The position numbers and the translations under genes are program-made. From assembly GCA_036676765.1 (NCBI GenBank), contig JAKFCH010000148.1, positions 11,141 through 75,140 on the forward strand: a stretch of DNA of 64,000 nt, in the 5' to 3' direction. Below are positions 32,822 through 41,159 of this stretch, in pieces (the stretch's first letter is position 1; each line of letters starts with the position of its first letter). The DNA is from Deltaproteobacteria bacterium. Lineage in GTDB: Bacteria > Myxococcota_A > UBA796 > SXON01. The notes under the pieces are model-generated. The model did not search any database and was not told the DNA's origin. It saw nothing but the letters and a program-made list of their open reading frames with translations.

Positions 32822-32930
32822 GAAGCTCGACGACTCCGTACTCGGCTGCAGCCACGACGACGTGCTCGCCACGTCGACTACCGCATCAAGGATGCGGTGG
32901 TGCCGTTTCACCACCCGACCCCGACGGCCC
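32822..32930 (+). pseudogene. miniature internal-deletion relic of a large serine recombinase gene
   Basis: 32822-32870 matches about 40660-40708 (GAAGCTCGACGACTCCGT.CTCGGCT.CA.CCACGACGACGTGCTCGC). 32869-32930 matches about 41091-41152 (CACGT.GACTACCGCATCAAGGATGCGG.GGTGCCGTTTCACCA). The two blocks are joined directly at a short CGCC microhomology. Confidence 0.55.
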
Positions 32931-32943
32931 GCCTCGGGGTCAT

Positions 32944-34943: not shown

Positions 34944-35828
34944 ATGGAGCGTATGAGCCACCTGCTCCACCCCTTGCAGCGATACCAACTTCAGATCGAG
35001 CACGCGCTGGGTGAAGCGGTGCTGCAGCTTGGTGAGGAATCGCCTCTCCGCGCGGCGTGTGAGTACTCGCTGCTCGTCGGCGGCAAGCGTCTTCGTCCTG
35101 CCGTTGTCCTGATGGTGGCGGATGCGCTGGGCGCCCGCCACAGCGTCATCAAGGCCGCGCTGGCAACCGAGTTCCTCCACACCGCGTCCCTCATTGCCGA
35201 CGATCTGCCCAGCATGGACAACGCGGAGTTGCGGCGTGACGCACTCACGCTGCACCGCAAGTACGGTGAGGATGTGGCACTGCTGGCCACCTACGCGCTC
35301 ATCGCGGCTGGTTACGGGTACATCGCCGAGAATGCGCTGGAGTTGAAGCAACTTGAGCCCGCGGGCGAATGGGATCACGTGTGCGTGCTGGCCATCGCGA
35401 ACGCCACGCGCAATACCGGCATCCACGGAACGACCGGTGGACAGTACCTGGACCTGCATCCGCCGGCGGTGCTGGAGGACGCGCTCGCCAGGCTGATTCA
35501 CCTGAAGACCACCACGCTGTTCGAGGTCTCGTTCGTGCTCGGTTGGCTCTTTGGCGGTGGGAACCGCGACCAGCTCCCCTCGGTGGCCGAGCTGTCGCGC
35601 AACTTCGGACTTGCCTACCAGATTGCCGACGACCTGGACGACCTCGAAGAGGACAGGCAATTGGGGCGCGGCGTGAACTACGCGCTGCAGTTTGGTGAGA
35701 CGCAGGCCCGCGTTCAGCTGAGTGCCGCGTTGGACGCGTGCGAGCAGCTGGCCCATACCCTTGGCCTGCGCGGCGCCGCTCTGTTCGAGATCACCTCCGC
35801 CCTGCGTCAGACGGCCGCGCTGGCGTGA
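34944..35828 (+). CDS. short-chain (E)-polyprenyl diphosphate synthase (FPP/GGPP synthase class)
   Basis: Real part of ORF 34791..35828. Motifs: GGKRLRP, first Asp-rich motif LIADDLPSMDNAELRRD, second Asp-rich motif AYQIADDLDD. The start is ATG 34944 or 34953. Confidence 0.85.
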   Translation: MERMSHLLHPLQRYQLQIEHALGEAVLQLGEESPLRAACEYSLLVGGKRLRPAVVLMVADALGARHSVIKAALATEFLHTASLIADDLPSMDNAELRRDALTLHRKYGEDVALLATYALIAAGYGYIAENALELKQLEPAGEWDHVCVLAIANATRNTGIHGTTGGQYLDLHPPAVLEDALARLIHLKTTTLFEVSFVLGWLFGGGNRDQLPSVAELSRNFGLAYQIADDLDDLEEDRQLGRGVNYALQFGETQARVQLSAALDACEQLAHTLGLRGAALFEITSALRQTAALA

Positions 35829-36916
35829 GCGCACCGGCGACGCTCGGACGCAGTGCGGTGGGCCGCGCGCTTTGCAGCTTCCGGTTGCTGGCCGGGCAAC
35901 GCGACGCCGGCGGCGTGCTGCTCCTGATCGCCGTGTGCGGCGTCGCGGCGCTGAACGCCGCGCTGATGTGGCTGGAAGACCGCCTCGTGCCAGGGCTGAC
36001 GACGCAGCCGCTGGACCGTGTCATCTTCATCCTGGGCCACCATCGCAGCGGAACCACCAACCTCCACAAGGCGCTGCGGCCGCACCCCAGCCTGCGGTGC
36101 GGCACCCTGTATGACGCGTTGTTCCCGTCGCTCTACCTGAAGCGACTGTTCCGGACGCGGCCGGCGCGCTGGGTCTCTCACTCGCTCAATCGCAATGCCG
36201 CCGCCCGTTATGACAGCGCGAACCACCCGGTGGGTCTGGACGAGGAGCTCGAGGAGCACTTGTGGCTCCTGCACCGCCTGCGCTCCGAGGCGTTCCTGCT
36301 GATGTTTCCGTCGCTGTTGCTGGCGGAGCCCGGCCTGATGCCTGACGCCGTGGACATCACCGACGACGACCTGCGCTTCGTGGCACGCTGCCTGCGGCGC
36401 GTCCTTCACGACGAGAAGGATCCCACGACGACCTACGTTGCGCGTCCGCTGCTCTTCACCATGCACGTGGAGGCGCTGCTGCGGCAGTTTCCCGCGGCGC
36501 GGGTGGTGCTCTGCGTGCGTGAGCCCGCGGCGGCCATCTGTTCACAGGGAGCCATGAGTCAGGCGCAGCTGCGGTGCGCCGTCGATGACCCGCGGCTGGT
36601 GGCCTGGGCGGAGGGCTTCTACCAGGCGGCGTCCACGCGCCAGTATGCGGCGATGCTTCACCTGATCGAGGACCCCGCGCACACCGGCCGCGTCGTGATG
36701 GTCCGCTTCGACGACCTCCAGCGCGACACACCCGGCGTGCTGCGCCGGCTGCTCGCCGCGCTGCACCTTCCCGAGATGGAGCTGCCCGCCGTGCGCGCCG
36801 AGCGCCACGCCGGCGCGGCGCCGCTGGAGCTCATCGCGCGCGAGCGCATCGAAGCAGACCTGGGTGAAACCTACCGGCGGCTCCTGGAGCGCATGCCTGG
36901 GACCATCCATGGTTAG
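35825..36916 (+). CDS. membrane-anchored sulfotransferase-family protein
   Basis: Real part of ORF 35738..36916. The GTG start at 35825 overlaps the upstream stop as GTGA. It has a TM segment (GVLLLIAVCGVAALNAALMWL), a PAPS 5'-phosphosulfate loop ILGHHRSGTTNLHKAL and a 3'-phosphate-type motif VVLCVREPAAAICS. Confidence 0.7.
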   Translation: MSAPATLGRSAVGRALCSFRLLAGQRDAGGVLLLIAVCGVAALNAALMWLEDRLVPGLTTQPLDRVIFILGHHRSGTTNLHKALRPHPSLRCGTLYDALFPSLYLKRLFRTRPARWVSHSLNRNAAARYDSANHPVGLDEELEEHLWLLHRLRSEAFLLMFPSLLLAEPGLMPDAVDITDDDLRFVARCLRRVLHDEKDPTTTYVARPLLFTMHVEALLRQFPAARVVLCVREPAAAICSQGAMSQAQLRCAVDDPRLVAWAEGFYQAASTRQYAAMLHLIEDPAHTGRVVMVRFDDLQRDTPGVLRRLLAALHLPEMELPAVRAERHAGAAPLELIARERIEADLGETYRRLLERMPGTIHG

Positions 36917-38330
36917 CGGACGCGCGACGATGGGCGACTGGCTTCGCCTGTTCCGCCCGCGCAACCTTCCCAACTTTCTCGTCGTCGTCTTGGGCGCGCT
37001 GGCCGTCAGTGACAGCGCGCCGCCGATCGAGGCGCTGGCGTTCGAGTTCCTCTGGTTTGGTCTGTGCCTCTACGGCGGAATCTACATCCTCAACGAGGTG
37101 CTCGAGGCGGATGTCGATCGGCTGCATCCCGTCAAGCGCAGCCGCCCAGTGCCCTCCGGCAGGATTCGGGCGTGGCAGGCGCTGGTGCTGGTCGGCGTCC
37201 TCTGGACCATCGCCTTCGCAGCAGCCGAGCCCGCGCAGCGCGCGCTGTATCTGGGGTTCATCGCGGTCAACGTGGTGTACACGCTATTCGTGAAGCGGCA
37301 TGGGTTTCGGAACCTCATTGCCGTGACCAGCGCGCTGCGCGTCTCGCTGGGATTCGTGGTGGCGGGGAAGGGGGCCTTGTATGAGCCGGGGCTCATGGTG
37401 CTCGCCACGGTCTACATGGCGTCGGTGCAGCAGGTGAAGTTCGGTGTCGAGGGGACCCGCGGCAGCCGCCACACCGGGGCCAAGCTGCTCGTCTTCGCGG
37501 CGCTGATGGTACCGGTCTCCATCTGGTGCATGCCGCGCTATCCCGTCATGGTGGCGTGGACCTGGCTGGCAATGGTCGTCTGGGTGTTCCTCCCGTGGCA
37601 GTTTCCGCCGGCCGCCCGCTGGCTCATCGGCGCCGACGTGCCCACGCCGGACACCACGCGGGCGGGGCTTCCCGCCATGATCGTCTTCGACATCGACGGG
37701 ACGCTCTGCGACAGCATGCCCGCCATCCTGGACGCCGTGAACGACGCGGCGCCGGCCATGGGATTTTCGCGCATCACGCAGGAGCGGTACCGCGAGATGC
37801 GGACCATGACCGTCCGGCAGATCCAGAAGGACCTGGGGTTGAGCGGTTGGCAGCTGGCCAGACTCGGCCGCCATACCCGCCGCTTTCTCTACGAGCGGAA
37901 GGACAGCCTCGCGCCGGTCGCCGGCGTGGCTGCGCAGCTGCGGGTGTTGCGCCAGAGCGGCTATCGCCTCGCCATCGTCTCGTCGAACCAGCAGAAGAAC
38001 GTGCGGGCATTCGTGCGTGCGCATGACATCGACTTTTTCGACGAGATCAACACGCACTGCGGGTTGGGCACCGGCCTGTGGCGTAAGCGCGAGCAACTGC
38101 GTGATCTGATGGACAACTGGCAGCACCAGGTGGGCCGGTTTGTCTATGTCTGCGACGAGATCCGCGACGTCGAAGCGGCGCGCGCGGTCCGGATGCCAGT
38201 CATTGCCGTCAGTTGGGGAGCGAACACGGCCGCGGTCCTTGCCGCCGCCGGCCCGACGACGCTCATCGACTCGCCGGCGCAGCTGGTCGACGCTGTGCGG
38301 AGTGCGGTCTCGATGGGTGAATCTGCATGA
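36909..38330 (+). CDS. UbiA-superfamily prenyltransferase fused to a HAD-superfamily phosphatase
   Basis: ORF 36864..38330. ATG 36909 overlaps the upstream stop by 8 nt. The N-terminal about 260 aa is polytopic with LNEVLEADVDRLHPVKRSRPVPSGRI. The C-terminal HAD has motifs IVFDIDGTLCDS, LAIVSSNQ and VYVCDEIRDVEAA. Confidence 0.8.
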   Translation: MVSGRATMGDWLRLFRPRNLPNFLVVVLGALAVSDSAPPIEALAFEFLWFGLCLYGGIYILNEVLEADVDRLHPVKRSRPVPSGRIRAWQALVLVGVLWTIAFAAAEPAQRALYLGFIAVNVVYTLFVKRHGFRNLIAVTSALRVSLGFVVAGKGALYEPGLMVLATVYMASVQQVKFGVEGTRGSRHTGAKLLVFAALMVPVSIWCMPRYPVMVAWTWLAMVVWVFLPWQFPPAARWLIGADVPTPDTTRAGLPAMIVFDIDGTLCDSMPAILDAVNDAAPAMGFSRITQERYREMRTMTVRQIQKDLGLSGWQLARLGRHTRRFLYERKDSLAPVAGVAAQLRVLRQSGYRLAIVSSNQQKNVRAFVRAHDIDFFDEINTHCGLGTGLWRKREQLRDLMDNWQHQVGRFVYVCDEIRDVEAARAVRMPVIAVSWGANTAAVLAAAGPTTLIDSPAQLVDAVRSAVSMGESA

Positions 38331-39268
38331 CGGATGCACTGGAGCTGGAAGCCGCGGCCTGCCTCCTCTGCGGCGCCAGCGATGACGAGACCGTGGCGAT
38401 CAGTCCGGTACAACAGCACACCACGCGGGACGTGTTCCGCTTTGTCCGGTGCCGCGCCTGTGCGCTTGTGCGGCTCCACCCGCGCGTCCGCGCCGAGCGC
38501 GTAGGCGTCTACTATGACGCCACCTATCTGCCGCACCGCGGCGCGGCGGCCTGGGGCCGTTACGCGCCTATCGTCGAGCGGGCGTTGGGGCGGACGGATC
38601 GCGCCCGGGTCAAACGTGTGCTCGCCACCAAGCGACTCACGTCAGTCTCGCGGGTGCTCGACGTCGGCTGCGGACGTCCGACCTTTCTTCGCGCGTTGCG
38701 CGACGCCACCGGCGCCCACGCCGTGGGCATCGATTTCGTTGACGAGGCATGGCGCGGCGACCCTGCACGCTGGAGCGGGCTCGAGCTTCACGAGGGAACA
38801 TTGGAAAACGCGCCGCTCACACCCGGGTTCGACGCGATGACGCTGTGGCACGCGCTGGAGCACGATTACCAGCCGCTGGCGACGCTGCGCCGGTTGCGCG
38901 CGCTGGCGGCTCCGGACGCCGTGCTGGTGATCGAAGTCCCGAACTACGACTCGCTCTGGAGGATATGGCACGGCGCGCAATGGGCAGGTTTTCATACGCC
39001 GCGCCATACGGTGGCGTTCACCCCGGCGACGCTGCGCCACCTGGTGGAGAAGGCGGGCTGGCGTGTCGAGCAGCAGCTCCGCTACGGCACGCTCGACCCG
39101 TACATCTCGTGGTGGCTTGGCCGTCAGGAGCTCAACGGGCTCGGCGTGCGCGGCGACCTCTCCGGCCGGTTCTTCAGCTTCGTGCTCGGCAAGGCGCTGT
39201 CGCTTCCGCTGACCGTGTTTCAGCGGTGGGTGAGCATGGGCGCGCAGACGCTGATCGCGCGCGCATGA
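38327..39268 (+). CDS. class I SAM-dependent methyltransferase with an N-terminal CxxC...CxxC ribbon
   Basis: ATGA overlap with the upstream gene. CLLCGASDD...FVRCRACALV, SAM motif I VLDVGCGRPTF, post-I and motif II FDAMTLWHALEH. Confidence 0.8.
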   Translation: MTDALELEAAACLLCGASDDETVAISPVQQHTTRDVFRFVRCRACALVRLHPRVRAERVGVYYDATYLPHRGAAAWGRYAPIVERALGRTDRARVKRVLATKRLTSVSRVLDVGCGRPTFLRALRDATGAHAVGIDFVDEAWRGDPARWSGLELHEGTLENAPLTPGFDAMTLWHALEHDYQPLATLRRLRALAAPDAVLVIEVPNYDSLWRIWHGAQWAGFHTPRHTVAFTPATLRHLVEKAGWRVEQQLRYGTLDPYISWWLGRQELNGLGVRGDLSGRFFSFVLGKALSLPLTVFQRWVSMGAQTLIARA

Positions 39269-40416
39269 AAACACACTGTGACGTACTCATCGTCGGCGCG
39301 GGTCCGGCAGGCACCACTTGCGCGGAGACGCTGGCGCGCAGTGGTGCGTCGGTGGTCGTGCTCGACAGGAAGCGGGCGGGCTGGCACAAGCCGTGTGGCG
39401 GCGGCATCCCGGAGAAGACGTTTCGAAAATTCGATCTGCCGCTGTCGCTCGGGTTCGCCACGCCGTGCGTCCGGGTCGTCGATCGCGCGGGTCACGAAGT
39501 GCGCACGACGGTCCGCTATCGTGACGTCCACCGCAATGTCTTCGACGAGCATCTGGCGGACAGAGCCCGGAGCGAGGGTGCCGAGGTGCTGTTCGACACG
39601 CCCGTCGTCGGCGTCGAGCGGACGACGTCGGGCTTCCGCGCGCAAACGTCCGCCGGCACCTGCGATGCGAAGTACCTCGTGGCGGCGGACGGCTGCATGT
39701 CCACGATCCGGAAACGGCTCTTCCCCGAGCAGTTGCGCAAGGAGATGCTCGCGGTGGCCGTCGAGTATTGGTATCGCGTTCCGCACGGTACCAACTCGCT
39801 CGACTTCTTCGTCGAGCCCGCCATCCTCGACACCGGCTACGCCTACGTGTTTCCCAAGGACCCGGAGACGCTGGTCGTCGGCATTGCCGGTGTGGGGGTG
39901 AGCAAGCCGCGGGCGGTGCTGGACCGGCTGCTCGCGCTGCCGCGCTACCAGGCGCTCATTGGCAGCGCGCCTGTCCATCAAGTGCACGGCGCAGGGATTC
40001 CGTATCGGCATCTCTCGCGCATTCGTGACGGCCGTCTGCTGCTGGTGGGCGACGCGGCCGGGTTGAACACCCCGATCATCTTCGCGGGGATTCCCGTGGC
40101 GATGTCGTCAGGACGGCTGGCGGGCGAGCTGCTCGCTGAGGCGCTGGCCTCTGGCACCGAGACGCCGCTCGACCGCTACACGCCCGACGAAATCGGTCGG
40201 ATCAGCTCCGGCTTCACGGGGTGTCACGCCTACTACGACCACCTGATCGCCCAGCGTCGTCCCCCGGCGTTTCACCAGCTGGCCCGGCACTTCCTGTCCC
40301 GGCCGCACAAGCTGCCGCAAGCCTACGTGCTCTGGCGATCGCTCAACCGGCTCGTCGAGGGTCTGAACCTCGAGCGAATTGCGGCCACTCACCGCCGTGA
40401 GCAAGACCAGGGTTAG
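39265..40416 (+). CDS. geranylgeranyl reductase family FAD-dependent oxidoreductase
   Basis: Real part of ORF 38749..40416, with ATGA overlap with the upstream gene. DVLIVGAGPAGTTCAETLARSG (GxGxxG), KPCGGGIP, LVAADGCMS, LLLVGDAAGLNTP. Confidence 0.85.
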   Translation: MKTHCDVLIVGAGPAGTTCAETLARSGASVVVLDRKRAGWHKPCGGGIPEKTFRKFDLPLSLGFATPCVRVVDRAGHEVRTTVRYRDVHRNVFDEHLADRARSEGAEVLFDTPVVGVERTTSGFRAQTSAGTCDAKYLVAADGCMSTIRKRLFPEQLRKEMLAVAVEYWYRVPHGTNSLDFFVEPAILDTGYAYVFPKDPETLVVGIAGVGVSKPRAVLDRLLALPRYQALIGSAPVHQVHGAGIPYRHLSRIRDGRLLLVGDAAGLNTPIIFAGIPVAMSSGRLAGELLAEALASGTETPLDRYTPDEIGRISSGFTGCHAYYDHLIAQRRPPAFHQLARHFLSRPHKLPQAYVLWRSLNRLVEGLNLERIAATHRREQDQG

Positions 40417-40479
40417 ACATTGGGATCATCCTCACCCTCTCTCCCCGCCTCGCCCGGCCGTCAGGCGCGGCGGGTGGCG

Positions 40480-41159
40480 GGTGGCGGGGTCCCGGTCCGA
40501 GCGCGACGTGCTCACCCCGTGGCTCCGGTGCGGCTCGTGTGGCGGCCGCGTCCAGATCACGGCTGGAGGTCGCGCCAGCGGGGGCATCTTCCACTACTAC
40601 GTCTGCGCCTCCCGTCAGGAGAACAAGGCCCATTGCTCCGGGCTGAACGTCCGGTTGGAGAAGCTCGACGACTCCGTGCTCGGCTACATCCACGACGACG
40701 TGCTCGCGCCCGACAACGTCCGCGACCTCGTGTCCCGCTGGGCGGCCGCCCTGTCCGACCAGCCCGACGAGGTCCAGGTCGAGCGCGCCCGCCTCTCCTC
40801 CGACATTGACCAGCTGGACCAGCGTATCCGCAAGGTCGGGCTCCAGGTCGTCGATGGCGTGCTCGCCACGGAGGACACCAAGGCCCTGAACGCGCGGCTC
40901 ATCGACCGCCGCGACGCGGCGAAGCTGCGCCTCGCTTCGCTCCCCCAACGCCAGCCGACGCCCCCGGCCCATCGACGCCGACACGTTCCGCGGCGAGATC
41001 CTGACCGCGTGGGGCAACCGCCCTCTCGACGATCGCCGGGCCGCCCTCGACCGGATCATCGAGAGGATCACCCTGTCAGAGGGCGGCGCCCACGTGGACT
41101 ACCGCATCAAGGATGCGGAGGTGCCGTTTCACCAGCCTGACCCCTCAGGCCCCCCATAA
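40480..41159 (+). pseudogene. large serine recombinase gene relic (zinc-ribbon + coiled-coil C-terminal part only, frameshifted)
   Basis: ORF 40379..41140 reads LRCGSCGGRVQITAGGRASGGIFHYYVCASRQENKAHCSGLNVRLEKLDDSVLGYI...DQLDQRIRKV, a recombinase zinc beta-ribbon and coiled coil. The resolvase catalytic domain is absent. After about 40960 the sensible reading (PIDADTFRGEILTAWGNRPLDDRRAALDRIIERITLSEGGAHVDYRIKDAEVPFHQ) continues in another frame to TAA at 41157-59. Confidence 0.65.

What the first reader, a model, noticed from the sequence alone, without database searches (positions are those of the whole stretch)
36909..38330. UbiA-HAD fusion whose active-site loop looks like decaprenyl-phosphate phosphoribosyltransferase (DPPR synthase) but with Asp-to-Glu substitutions
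Seen: the first UbiA motif reads LNEVLEADVDRLHPVKRSRPVPSGRI. The D-R-x-H-P-x-K-R-x-R-P...G spacing is what I remember from the DPPR-synthase (mycobacterial UbiA / rhizobial NoeC-like) subfamily. The canonical NDxxDxxxD is NExxExDxD here. A complete HAD phosphatase (DIDGT, SSN, CDEIRD) is fused in frame to the C-terminus. Established: in mycobacteria DPPR synthase makes polyprenyl-phospho-5-phosphoribose, which a separate phosphatase then dephosphorylates. Inference: the fusion could perform both steps (prenyl-phosphate pentosylation, then 5'-dephosphorylation). Alternatively the HAD domain converts prenyl diphosphate to the monophosphate acceptor. Either way the operon product would be a prenyl-phospho-sugar rather than an aromatic prenylation product.
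Basis: partly seen in the sequence, partly recalled or inferred. Interest (0 to 1): 0.6.

Follow-up and report, generated by a model that had tools for sequence, protein, structure and literature searches.

The report
Reversed UbiA-phosphatase fusion, sulfolipid operon
One gene joins a membrane enzyme related to the mycobacterial lipid-ribose synthase to a working-looking phosphatase, in the opposite order to the one such fusion characterised so far. It sits in a rare operon that probably makes a sulfated, methylated isoprenoid lipid nobody has described.

Summary
ORF 36909-38330 encodes 473 aa: an 8-helix UbiA-fold domain carrying LNEVLEADVDRLHPVKRSRPVPSGRI, fused in frame to a HAD phosphatase with all four catalytic motifs.

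- **Nearest relative.** By sequence, profile and fold, the nearest characterised relative of the UbiA domain is the decaprenyl-phosphate phosphoribosyltransferase Rv3806c (8J8J). Aromatic prenyltransferases and DGGGP synthase score lower.
- **Not an orthologue.** The domain falls in a separate, rare, uncharacterised clade that I call B1. It keeps the diphosphate/Mg2+/ribose-contact residues. It has lost Lys28, Asp74, Tyr157, the capping loop and TM9.
- **The two Glu.** The first Asp-to-Glu is family-wide. The second replaces the Mg2+ ligand Asp77 and is private to this genome.
- **Precedent.** A HAD-phosphatase::phosphoribosyltransferase fusion (Citrobacter youngae ORF15, 2024) does both steps. 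It has the opposite domain order and an unrelated HAD subfamily.
- **Context.** The gene sits in a translationally coupled operon: GGPP-type synthase, sulfotransferase, UbiA-HAD, methyltransferase, geranylgeranyl reductase. In cyanobacteria the closest relatives are UbiA-sulfotransferase fusions next to the same kind of methyltransferase.

Best reading (about 45%): PRPP-dependent ribosylation of a C20 isoprenyl phosphate, then dephosphorylation, then sulfation and methylation. This is a new variant of a known kind, and biochemistry is needed to test it.

The parts
36909..38330 (+). UbiA-HAD fusion gene (473 aa; alternative start ATG 36930)
   Evidence: ORF list and translation. Pfam UbiA plus HAD_2. 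AF2 model with pLDDT 93.2 and pTM 0.77.
36909..37628 (+). UbiA-fold membrane domain: 8 TM helices (aa 17-231) plus an amphipathic helix at 233-240; no TM9
   Evidence: Hydropathy and loop charges. AF2 secondary structure. Foldseek best hit 8J8J_A, E 2.9e-5, TMq 0.70.
37089..37166 (+). First cytoplasmic loop motif LNEVLEADVDRLHPVKRSRPVPSGRI. Equivalents in Rv3806c: N62=N73, E63=D74, E66=D77, D70=D81, K76=K87, R79=R90.
37674..38327 (+). C-terminal HAD-IA (C1-capped) phosphatase domain with motifs I-IV intact (D261, D263, S358, K393, D416, D420)
   Evidence: Pfam HAD_2 E 7e-24. PDB sequence hits 2hi0, 6f2x and AlnB 4ex6. Foldseek hits to phosphoglycolate phosphatase-like proteins, AlnB, CbbY and the BT2127 pyrophosphatase.
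34944..35828 (+). Short-chain trans-polyprenyl diphosphate synthase, probably GGPP-type (Ala at position -5 before DDLPSMD)
   Evidence: Pfam polyprenyl_synt E 1e-36. NCBIfam FPPsyn and CrtE are the best models, both below their cut-offs. The chain-length rule comes from general knowledge.
35828..36916 (+). Sulfotransferase with an N-terminal hydrophobic helix; PAPS-loop GHHRSGTT present
   Evidence: Pfam Sulfotransfer_3 E 7e-21. 33% identity, E 1e-45, to residues 266-575 of the UbiA-sulfotransferase fusion P0025.
38327..39268 (+). SAM methyltransferase (Methyltransf_23) with an N-terminal Cys4 zinc ribbon
   Evidence: Pfam E 6.6e-23. The same type of gene lies beside every B1-clade UbiA seen on a long enough contig.
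39268..40416 (+). Geranylgeranyl reductase family flavoprotein
   Evidence: TIGR02032 170.8 bits, above its cut-off of 158.8.
32822..32933 (.). Upstream copy of recombinase-gene fragments that recur downstream of the operon
   Evidence: Direct repeats D3/D4, 83-94% identical to 40660-40707 and 41090-41154.
40379..41154 (+). Serine-recombinase relic (zinc beta-ribbon only) just downstream of the operon
   Evidence: PF13408 E 4e-10. Repeats.

Best explanation
The gene encodes a bifunctional inner-membrane enzyme.

1. **Transferase (inferred).** The N-terminal 8-helix UbiA-fold domain binds a diphosphate-activated polar donor, most likely PRPP, through Mg2+ and a Lys/Arg cluster on its cytoplasmic face. 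It transfers 5-phosphoribose onto the phosphate of a C20 isoprenyl phosphate. The operon's own GGPP-type synthase would make that chain and its geranylgeranyl reductase would saturate it.
2. **Phosphatase (inferred).** Because the ninth helix is missing, the C-terminal HAD domain stays in the cytoplasm. It would remove the 5'-phosphate from the lipid-linked product.
3. **Decoration (inferred).** The neighbouring sulfotransferase and methyltransferase would then decorate the ribose. The end product would be a sulfated, O-methylated isoprenyl-phospho-ribose lipid.

Shown by computation: domain composition, fold, topology, intact catalytic motifs, nearest family, conserved gene neighbourhood and the fusions to sulfotransferase. 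Inferred: donor, acceptor, order of steps and product.
For: **Family placement**
- 8J8J is the only PDB hit for the single sequence.
- It is the best hit for the clade-only profile (1.6e-18).
- It is the best Foldseek hit.
- The best NCBIfam models are the HAD-UbiA family PRK08238 and the DPPRS models, for all 15 clade members.

**Residues**
- All residues that hold PRPP's diphosphate in Rv3806c are kept: R22, K87, R90, K143, Y138.
- N73 (Mg2+ ligand and ribose contact) is kept; the other Mg2+ ligand, D77, is Asp in the homologues but Glu in the window copy.
- Also kept are the other ribose contact Q135 (as Asn, the commonest residue in canonical members too), Y70, R160, K191 and E195 (roles from PMC10994848).
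- At the Y70 and Q135 positions, the prenyl-diphosphate-using DGGGPS and AfUbiA have a gap/Phe and Leu/Gly.
- The second Asp-rich motif that prenyl-diphosphate users need for a second Mg2+ is absent. Only K177...E181 remains, as in DPPRS.

**Phosphatase partners across the wider family**
- HAD-IB fused at the N-terminus, as in ORF15, where both activities were shown in vitro (PMC11127046).
- PAP2 adjacent (L013, L029). L029 (PAP2, UbiA::GT2, GT4, Glf) mirrors M. tuberculosis Rv3806c-Rv3809c, although that UbiA also lacks Lys28.
- HAD-IA fused at the C-terminus, here.

**Topology and HAD**
- Eight TM helices with Lys/Arg-rich even-numbered loops put both active sites in the cytoplasm.
- AlnB, a HAD-IA enzyme named in the PDB as alnumycin P phosphatase, is among the closest solved relatives.

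**Pathway link**
- The closest relatives outside the family are UbiA-sulfotransferase fusions.
- Every sufficiently long contig also carries a Methyltransf_23 gene.
Against: - Lys28 binds both the 5'-phosphate of PRPP and the acceptor phosphate, and is Lys in 65 of 65 canonical members. Here it is Asn/Pro.
- Tyr157 is Ser, Asp74 is Glu and Arg192 is Phe. The TM6-TM7 cap with Lys208, and TM9, are gone.
- The domain lies outside the canonical clade. In the IQ-TREE run the long DGGGPS branch attaches on the same side as the short clades.
- Foldseek TM-scores barely separate 8J8J (0.70) from ApUbiA (0.69) and DGGGPS (0.64).
- The Mg2+ ligand Asp77 is Glu in this copy.
- The HAD is unrelated to the phosphoribose-phosphatase domain of the ORF15-type fusions.
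- The UbiA-sulfotransferase systems of cyanobacteria show no phosphatase nearby.
- No enzyme for GGPP-to-GGP conversion, no flippase and no GT-C is in the operon.
- No sulfated isoprenyl-phosphoribose lipid turned up in the literature searches.
Confidence: 0.45

Rival explanations
1. The transferase chemistry is the same (PRPP onto an isoprenyl phosphate), but the HAD domain works upstream. It would hydrolyse the geranylgeranyl/phytyl diphosphate made by the operon's synthase to the monophosphate that the transferase needs as acceptor.
For: - Every UbiA-HAD locus has a polyprenyl synthase gene immediately upstream: the window, L001-L005 and L012.
- The three UbiA-sulfotransferase loci that lack a HAD also lack a dedicated synthase.
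- HAD-IA inorganic pyrophosphatases (BT2127, PpaX) are among the structural and profile neighbours.
- Nothing else in the operon can supply a monophosphate.
Against: - All UbiA-HAD proteins form one clade. The co-occurrence is therefore a single evolutionary event and carries no statistical weight.
- C1-capped HAD-IA enzymes usually take small soluble phospho-sugars or phospho-acids.
- The characterised precedent (ORF15) and Rv3807c both act on the 5'-phosphate of the product (PMC11127046).
Confidence: 0.15
2. The UbiA domain is a true prenyltransferase. It would use the operon's C20 diphosphate as donor and alkylate a polar, probably phosphorylated, acceptor such as a sugar phosphate, glycerol phosphate or phenol. 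The HAD would remove the acceptor's phosphate, and the sulfotransferase and methyltransferase would finish a sulfated prenyl ether or meroterpenoid.
For: - A dedicated GGPP-type synthase and a geranylgeranyl reductase sit in the operon.
- The pocket that holds the 5'-phosphate and the acceptor phosphate in Rv3806c is remodelled: K28, Y157 and R192 are lost, and clade-specific R134 and Q174 are gained.
- DGGGP synthase is the second-best PDB match, and its long branch joins the short clades in one tree.
- AfUbiA, which binds GPP, also has Ala after the motif Asn.
Against: - There is no second Asp-rich motif for the second Mg2+ that prenyl-diphosphate users employ.
- Polar Tyr59 and Asn121 line the donor site where DGGGPS and AfUbiA have a gap/Phe and Leu/Gly.
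- All profile comparisons favour the phosphoribosyltransferase group by 5-6 orders of magnitude.
- The sister clade sits in PAP2/Glf/GT contexts like the mycobacterial enzyme.
Confidence: 0.27
3. This particular copy is catalytically impaired because the Mg2+ ligand Asp77 has become Glu66. The operon would then be a decaying passenger on an old mobile island.
For: - E66 is unique among 143 aligned relatives.
- The operon is bracketed by recombinase-gene relics and pseudogene debris.
- The fusion is found in only 2 of 401 genomes of the phylum.
Against: - All five genes are intact and translationally coupled.
- Asp-to-Glu keeps the carboxylate.
- Every other functional residue is kept, and the AF2 model is confident.
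Confidence: 0.08

Closest known systems
Citrobacter youngae O1 ORF15 (phosphoribose phosphatase::polyprenyl-phosphate phosphoribosyltransferase; Kelly et al. 2024, PMC11127046); by architecture this corresponds to NCBIfam PRK08238
   Same: One polypeptide joins a HAD-superfamily phosphatase to a DPPRS-like UbiA-fold domain. The N-x-x-x-D-x-x-x-D loop, the K/R cluster and the K...E second motif are shared. PRK08238 is the best-scoring NCBIfam model for the UbiA half.
   Different: - Domain order is reversed: UbiA first, HAD last.
- There are 8 TM helices instead of 9.
- The HAD is a HAD-IA/phosphoglycolate-phosphatase-like domain with no detectable similarity to the HAD of ORF15-type fusions.
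- The UbiA domain lies in another clade.
- The neighbours are a prenyl synthase, sulfotransferase, methyltransferase and reductase, not a flippase and a GT-C.
Mycobacterium tuberculosis Rv3806c (DPPR synthase, PDB 8J8J/8J8K; PMC10994848) with the separate PAP2 phosphatase Rv3807c
   Same: It is the closest solved structure by sequence, profile and fold. R22, Y70, N73, D81, K87, R90, Y138, K143, R160, K191 and E195 are conserved; D77 is Asp in the homologues but Glu in the window copy.
   Different: K28 becomes Asn/Pro, D74 becomes Glu, Y157 becomes Ser and R192 becomes Phe. The TM6-TM7 loop is 9 residues instead of about 30, and there is no TM9. Scores fall far below the curated cut-offs (51.5 against 207 bits). 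The phosphatase is a fused HAD, not a separate PAP2.
AlnB, alnumycin P phosphatase (PDB 4EX6/4EX7)
   Same: It is a HAD-IA C1-capped phosphatase among the nearest solved relatives of the C-terminal domain (E 1e-5 by sequence; Foldseek E 1.4e-7). From general knowledge, it removes the 5-phosphate of a ribose already attached to a hydrophobic aglycone.
   Different: AlnB is a soluble stand-alone enzyme of an aromatic polyketide pathway. The similarity is no greater than to generic phosphoglycolate phosphatase-like proteins.
Digeranylgeranylglyceryl phosphate synthase (MjDGGGPS, PDB 6M31)
   Same: Second-best PDB match for the clade profile (8e-13). It handles C20 isoprenoids, and the operon contains a GGPP-type synthase and a GGR-family reductase, as archaeal lipid pathways do.
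   Different: DGGGPS has a full second acidic motif (DFEDMEGD) and a first loop two residues shorter, and it lacks Y70, Q/N135 and R160. There is no GGGP synthase or G1P dehydrogenase gene in the operon.

Membership tests
Polyprenyl-phosphate 5-phosphoribosyltransferase (DPPRS/PPPRS: Rv3806c, ORF15-C) | UbiA fold, with DPPRS as the closest solved structure | tested here: met
   Foldseek best hit 8J8J_A, E 2.9e-5, TMq 0.70. The margin over other UbiA folds is small.
Polyprenyl-phosphate 5-phosphoribosyltransferase (DPPRS/PPPRS: Rv3806c, ORF15-C) | Score above the curated NCBIfam cut-off for a DPPRS or PRK08238 model | tested here: not met
   60.5 against 351 bits (PRK08238) and 51.5 against 207 bits (PRK12324.1-4).
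Polyprenyl-phosphate 5-phosphoribosyltransferase (DPPRS/PPPRS: Rv3806c, ORF15-C) | Mg2+ ligands Asn73 and Asp77 | tested here: inconclusive
   N62 is present. Asp77 is Asp in the four homologues but Glu66 in the window copy.
Polyprenyl-phosphate 5-phosphoribosyltransferase (DPPRS/PPPRS: Rv3806c, ORF15-C) | Second residue of the N-D-x-x-D motif is Asp (Asp74 in Rv3806c, D248 in ORF15, needed for activity) | tested here: not met
   Glu63 here, and E/G/A/S throughout clade B1, against Asp in 65 of 65 canonical members.
Polyprenyl-phosphate 5-phosphoribosyltransferase (DPPRS/PPPRS: Rv3806c, ORF15-C) | Diphosphate-binding cluster Arg22, Lys87, Arg90, Lys143, Tyr138 | tested here: met
   R16, K76, R79, K129 and Y124 are invariant in the family.
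Polyprenyl-phosphate 5-phosphoribosyltransferase (DPPRS/PPPRS: Rv3806c, ORF15-C) | 5'-phosphate and acceptor-phosphate site: Lys28, Tyr70, Tyr157, Lys191 | tested here: not met
   Y59 and K177 are kept. Lys28 is Asn22/Pro21 and Tyr157 is Ser.
Polyprenyl-phosphate 5-phosphoribosyltransferase (DPPRS/PPPRS: Rv3806c, ORF15-C) | Nine TM helices, with the lipid entrance between TM1 and TM9 | tested here: not met
   Eight TM helices by hydropathy and in the AF2 model.
Polyprenyl-phosphate 5-phosphoribosyltransferase (DPPRS/PPPRS: Rv3806c, ORF15-C) | Placement inside the clade that holds Rv3806c and the HAD-UbiA fusions | tested here: not met
   The canonical clade excludes it (SH-aLRT 95). It lies in clade B1 (SH-aLRT 100), sister to the short clade B2 (92).
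Polyprenyl-phosphate 5-phosphoribosyltransferase (DPPRS/PPPRS: Rv3806c, ORF15-C) | PRPP-dependent ribosylation of a polyprenyl phosphate | not testable with these tools
   Needs a membrane assay.
HAD superfamily phosphatase, subfamily IA (C1 cap) | Motifs I (DxDGT), II (S/T), III (K) and IV (DxxxD), plus a Rossmannoid core with a helical cap | tested here: met
   D261, D263, S358, K393, D416 and D420. HAD_2 85.3 bits against a cut-off of 23.8. Alignments to 2hi0 and 6f2x. Foldseek TMt up to 0.82.
Phosphoribose phosphatase (PRP) domain of ribofuranose transferases and ORF15 | Sequence relationship to the HAD domain of HAD-UbiA fusions | tested here: not met
   BLASTP against the HAD-UbiA fusion P0053 finds nothing (E 7.6). 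Those HADs match PF12710, whereas this one matches PF13419.
Prenyl-diphosphate-using UbiA enzymes (UbiA/MenA/ChlG/DGGGPS) | Second Asp-rich motif (DxxxD) for a second Mg2+ | tested here: not met
   Only K177-F-G-V-E181 is present. Compare DFEDMEGD in 6M31 and DYEFD in 4TQ3.
Prenyl-diphosphate-using UbiA enzymes (UbiA/MenA/ChlG/DGGGPS) | Best profile or phylogenetic affinity | tested here: not met
   Clade profile: 6M31 8e-13, 4OD4 3e-6, 4TQ3 2e-4 and ChlG 3e-4, against 8J8J 1.6e-18.

The most novel reading that the evidence does not exclude
Clade B1 of the UbiA superfamily marks an undescribed lipid class. The clade occurs fused to a HAD phosphatase in a few myxobacteria-like genomes, fused to a sulfotransferase in cyanobacteria, and as stand-alone genes in marine samples, one cluster including a chlorarachniophyte (MMETSP) transcript. 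The lipids would be isoprenyl-phospho-ribose (or a related prenyl-linked polar head) that is O-sulfated and O-methylated as an end product, not as a sugar carrier. The phosphoribosyltransferase active site would have been remodelled for a short C20 acceptor, with Lys28 and Tyr157 lost and Arg134 and Gln174 gained.
Probability: 0.3. Interest if true: 0.75.

Novelty: new variant of a known kind. Interest (0 to 1): 0.55.

Why it matters
Membrane phosphoribosyltransferases of the UbiA fold were known only as makers of lipid-linked pentose donors for cell-wall and O-antigen glycans. They are also a tuberculosis drug target.

This fusion and its sulfotransferase-fused relatives define a rare sister clade. 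The clade has a remodelled acceptor/5'-phosphate pocket, its own prenyl-chain supply and tailoring enzymes. That suggests the chemistry has been recruited to build a sulfated isoprenoid lipid as an end product.

If so, it would add a new bacterial, cyanobacterial and possibly algal lipid class. It would also give a natural experiment on which residues of Rv3806c are needed for phosphoribosyl transfer. If instead the domain proves to be a prenyltransferase, it would show that the DPPRS-type loop does not predict the donor.

Tried and rejected
- **Reference sequences from control genomes.** The search returns only tallies. I used the sequences printed in the PDB alignments instead.
- **Foldseek with the full-length model.** The list was swamped by HAD hits, so I folded and searched the UbiA domain alone.
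- **Neighbourhoods of the closest stand-alone HADs** (P0187, P0190). Uninformative.
- **Literature searches.** Searches for UbiA plus sulfotransferase plus reductase clusters, or for sulfated polyprenyl-phosphoribose, found nothing relevant.
- **Asp68 compensating for the lost Asp74.** Rejected, because an acidic residue at that position is equally common in canonical members.
- **Absence of Lys28 ruling out phosphoribosyl transfer.** Weakened, because sister-clade proteins without Lys28 sit in PAP2 / GT2 / GT4 / Glf clusters like the mycobacterial one.
- **Geometry of the model.** Model coordinates and PAE were not available, so the geometry of the Glu residues and the HAD-to-UbiA distance could not be measured.
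- **PDB searches with the methyltransferase and sulfotransferase.** Only generic hits, or none.


Full report
**Observation**

The window is about 70% G+C. ORF 36864..38330 (+) is open. The likely start is the ATG at 36909, which overlaps the stop of the upstream gene (36916). A database copy begins at the next ATG, 36930 (P0007). The 473-aa product contains LNEVLEADVDRLHPVKRSRPVPSGRI (aa 61-86; DNA) and the HAD motifs FDIDGT, IVSSN, RKR and CDEIRD. Pfam finds UbiA (E 2.5e-15) and HAD_2 (E 7e-24), both above their cut-offs.

One refinement is needed. The four full-length homologues (63-75% identical) read NEVxD(A/V)DLDR. Glu at motif position 2 is a family trait. Glu at position 5 (E66) is private to this genome. 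It replaces an Asp that 142 of 143 aligned relatives keep, the remaining one having Gly.

**Anatomy and topology**

Hydropathy gives eight membrane segments (aa 20-230). The N-terminus and the even-numbered loops are rich in Lys/Arg, and the odd-numbered loops are very short.

AlphaFold2 gives a confident model (pLDDT 93.2, pTM 0.77). It shows eight TM helices, an amphipathic helix at 233-240, a linker, and a Rossmannoid HAD domain with a helical cap from residue 256. Rv3806c and ORF15 have nine helices (PMC10994848, PMC11127046). Loss of the ninth leaves the C-terminal HAD on the cytoplasmic side, the same side as the UbiA active-site loops. The TM6-TM7 loop is 9 residues here, against about 30 in Rv3806c.

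**Family placement of the UbiA domain**

- A single-sequence search of all PDB chains hits only Rv3806c (8J8J, E 3.6e-7).
- The best NCBIfam models are PRK08238 (a 482-position HAD-UbiA model) and three DPPRS models. All score far below their cut-offs.
- An exhaustive search of 1.84 billion representatives gave 3508 hits.
- A profile of the immediate clade alone scores 8J8J at 1.6e-18, DGGGP synthase 6M31 at 8e-13, ApUbiA at 3e-6, AfUbiA at 2e-4 and ChlG at 3e-4.
- Foldseek with the UbiA-only model (pLDDT 94) ranks 8J8J_A first (E 2.9e-5, TMq 0.70). Other UbiA folds follow closely, at TMq 0.58-0.69.

Trees (FastTree on 146 rows, IQ-TREE on 72 rows) separate three groups:

- a canonical clade, which holds Rv3806c and all HAD-UbiA fusions (SH-aLRT 95);
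- clade B1, which holds the window protein (SH-aLRT 100);
- clade B2, sister to B1 (92), made of roughly 255-aa, eight-helix proteins.

The long DGGGPS branch attaches on the short-clade side, so the rooting is unsafe.

**Functional residues** (roles from PMC10994848; mapping)

| Group | Rv3806c residue | Window residue |
|---|---|---|
| Kept | R22 | R16 |
| Kept | Y70 | Y59 |
| Kept | N73 | N62 |
| Kept | D81 | D70 |
| Kept | K87 | K76 |
| Kept | R90 | R79 |
| Kept | Q135 | N121 (Asn is also the commonest residue in canonical members) |
| Kept | Y138 | Y124 |
| Kept | K143 | K129 |
| Kept | R160 | R144 |
| Kept | K191 | K177 |
| Kept | E195 | E181 |
| Changed | K28 (Lys in 65/65 canonical members; binds both the 5'-phosphate and the acceptor phosphate) | Asn22/Pro21 |
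| Changed | D74 | Glu |
| Changed | Y157 | Ser |
| Changed | R192 | Phe |
| Lost | the R207/K208...Y213 cap | deleted |

Arg134 and Gln174 are specific to clade B1. The second Asp-rich motif of prenyl-diphosphate users is absent, as it is in DPPRS.

In short, the donor-diphosphate/Mg2+ site and the polar ribose-side residues are DPPRS-like. The pocket for the 5'-phosphate and the acceptor head group has been rebuilt.

**HAD domain**

All four catalytic motifs align with solved HAD-IA enzymes. Fold neighbours are phosphoglycolate-phosphatase-like proteins, AlnB (alnumycin P phosphatase), CbbY and the BT2127 pyrophosphatase. The domain has no detectable similarity to the HAD of ORF15-type fusions. 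Those match PF12710 rather than PF13419. The two fusion architectures therefore arose independently.

**Context**

The gene is the third of five translationally coupled genes, 34944-40416:

1. a short-chain polyprenyl synthase, with Ala at -5 before DDLPSMD (GGPP-type by the usual chain-length rule, from general knowledge);
2. a sulfotransferase with an N-terminal hydrophobic helix;
3. the fusion;
4. a zinc-ribbon Methyltransf_23 methyltransferase;
5. a geranylgeranyl-reductase-family flavoprotein.

The synthase, sulfotransferase, fusion and methyltransferase recur in all four homologous loci. The reductase recurs in one of them. A more distant UbiA-HAD (P0024, 38% identity) follows a MurJ-like gene and a polyprenyl synthase.

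The nearest relatives outside this family are UbiA-sulfotransferase fusions of 603-611 aa. The window's separate sulfotransferase is 33% identical (E 1e-45) to the C-terminal part of one of them, including the hydrophobic helix. This is a Rosetta-stone link between the two enzymes. Those fusions, and a cyanobacterial variant with a degenerate PAPS loop, again sit beside a Methyltransf_23 gene.

In the sister clade B2, a PAP2 phosphatase precedes the UbiA gene. One locus reads PAP2, UbiA::GT2, GT4, UDP-galactopyranose mutase, which mirrors M. tuberculosis Rv3806c-Rv3809c (gene order from general knowledge). Proteins without Lys28 therefore still sit in a furanose-glycolipid context.

The fusion is rare:

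- five clusters among 5.8 billion;
- 2 of 401 genomes of the phylum.

The operon is bracketed by recombinase-gene relics, with 83-94% identical repeats at 32822-32933 and at 40660-41154.

**Known precedent**

C. youngae ORF15 is a HAD phosphatase fused N-terminally to a DPPRS-like domain. It makes farnesyl-phospho-ribose from PRPP in vitro, and its D18A mutant accumulates the 5'-phosphate product (PMC11127046). It has the opposite domain order and belongs to a different clade. Earlier notes of this scan on other genomes describe several such HAD-UbiA modules with GT-C partners. None has this architecture or this context.

**Mechanism**

I favour, at about 45%, the following sequence:

1. PRPP-dependent phosphoribosylation of a C20 isoprenyl phosphate;
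2. removal of the 5'-phosphate by the HAD domain;
3. sulfation and methylation of the ribose.

The rivals are:

- the HAD makes the monophosphate acceptor from the diphosphate (about 15%);
- the domain is a genuine prenyltransferase acting on a phosphorylated polar acceptor (about 27%);
- this copy is impaired by E66 (about 8%).

The donor, the acceptor and the product are all inferences.

**Unexplained**

The sulfotransferase's hydrophobic helix has a positively charged N-flank. In the fusions it is the ninth hydrophobic segment. If it spans the membrane, the PAPS-dependent domain would be periplasmic. It may instead pack as a surrogate TM9 or lie in the plane of the membrane.

**Verdict**

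This is a new variant of a known kind (a phosphatase-fused, DPPRS-like UbiA enzyme) in a context that points to an undescribed sulfated isoprenoid lipid.

Noticed in passing
L011:8001-9836, L017:1003-2838, L027:8001-9410: UbiA-sulfotransferase fusion proteins (603-611 aa) occur in cyanobacteria-like contigs, each beside a Methyltransf_23 gene. In a Xenococcaceae cyanobacterium MAG the sulfotransferase part is truncated and has lost its PAPS loop (GSQHIGIS instead of GHQRSGTT), and a GT28 (MGDG-synthase-like) gene lies upstream.
   Followed up: partly
window 35828-35990; P0025 residues 259-302: The sulfotransferase's N-terminal hydrophobic helix has a positively charged N-flank. In the fusions it is the ninth hydrophobic segment after an eight-helix UbiA domain. 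If it spans the membrane, the PAPS-dependent domain would be periplasmic. It may instead act as a surrogate TM9.
   Followed up: partly
L029:7538-12012 (and L013:6552-7777): In small-genome bacteria the cluster HisRS, PAP2, short UbiA (in L029 fused to a GT2), GT4, UDP-galactopyranose mutase resembles the mycobacterial Rv3806c-Rv3809c block, although the UbiA lacks Lys28.
   Followed up: partly
P0032/P0199 cluster and other roughly 1-kb contigs (P0029, P0034, P0035, P0037, P0067, P0082): Stand-alone members of the same clade come from marine samples. One cluster includes an MMETSP transcript of the chlorarachniophyte Partenskyella glossopodia, so the clade may extend to eukaryotic algae.
   Followed up: no
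window 32822-32933 and 40379-41154: Fragments of a serine-recombinase gene (zinc beta-ribbon only) are repeated at 83-94% identity on both sides of the operon. The 2 kb upstream holds a stop-interrupted FG-GAP repeat gene. The operon looks like the cargo of an old mobile or rearranged island.
   Followed up: partly
L001:6998-11443 compared with window 34944-40416: A same-genus genome carries the cassette with the methyltransferase moved to the front, no reductase, only 64-65% protein identity and different flanks. A third same-genus genome lacks the cassette. This suggests independent acquisition or rapid turnover.
   Followed up: partly
L015:4773-7162: A short UbiA of the sister clade lies directly after a 532-aa sulfatase/alkaline-phosphatase-superfamily gene. 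This is a third kind of phosphoesterase partner for this UbiA group.
   Followed up: no
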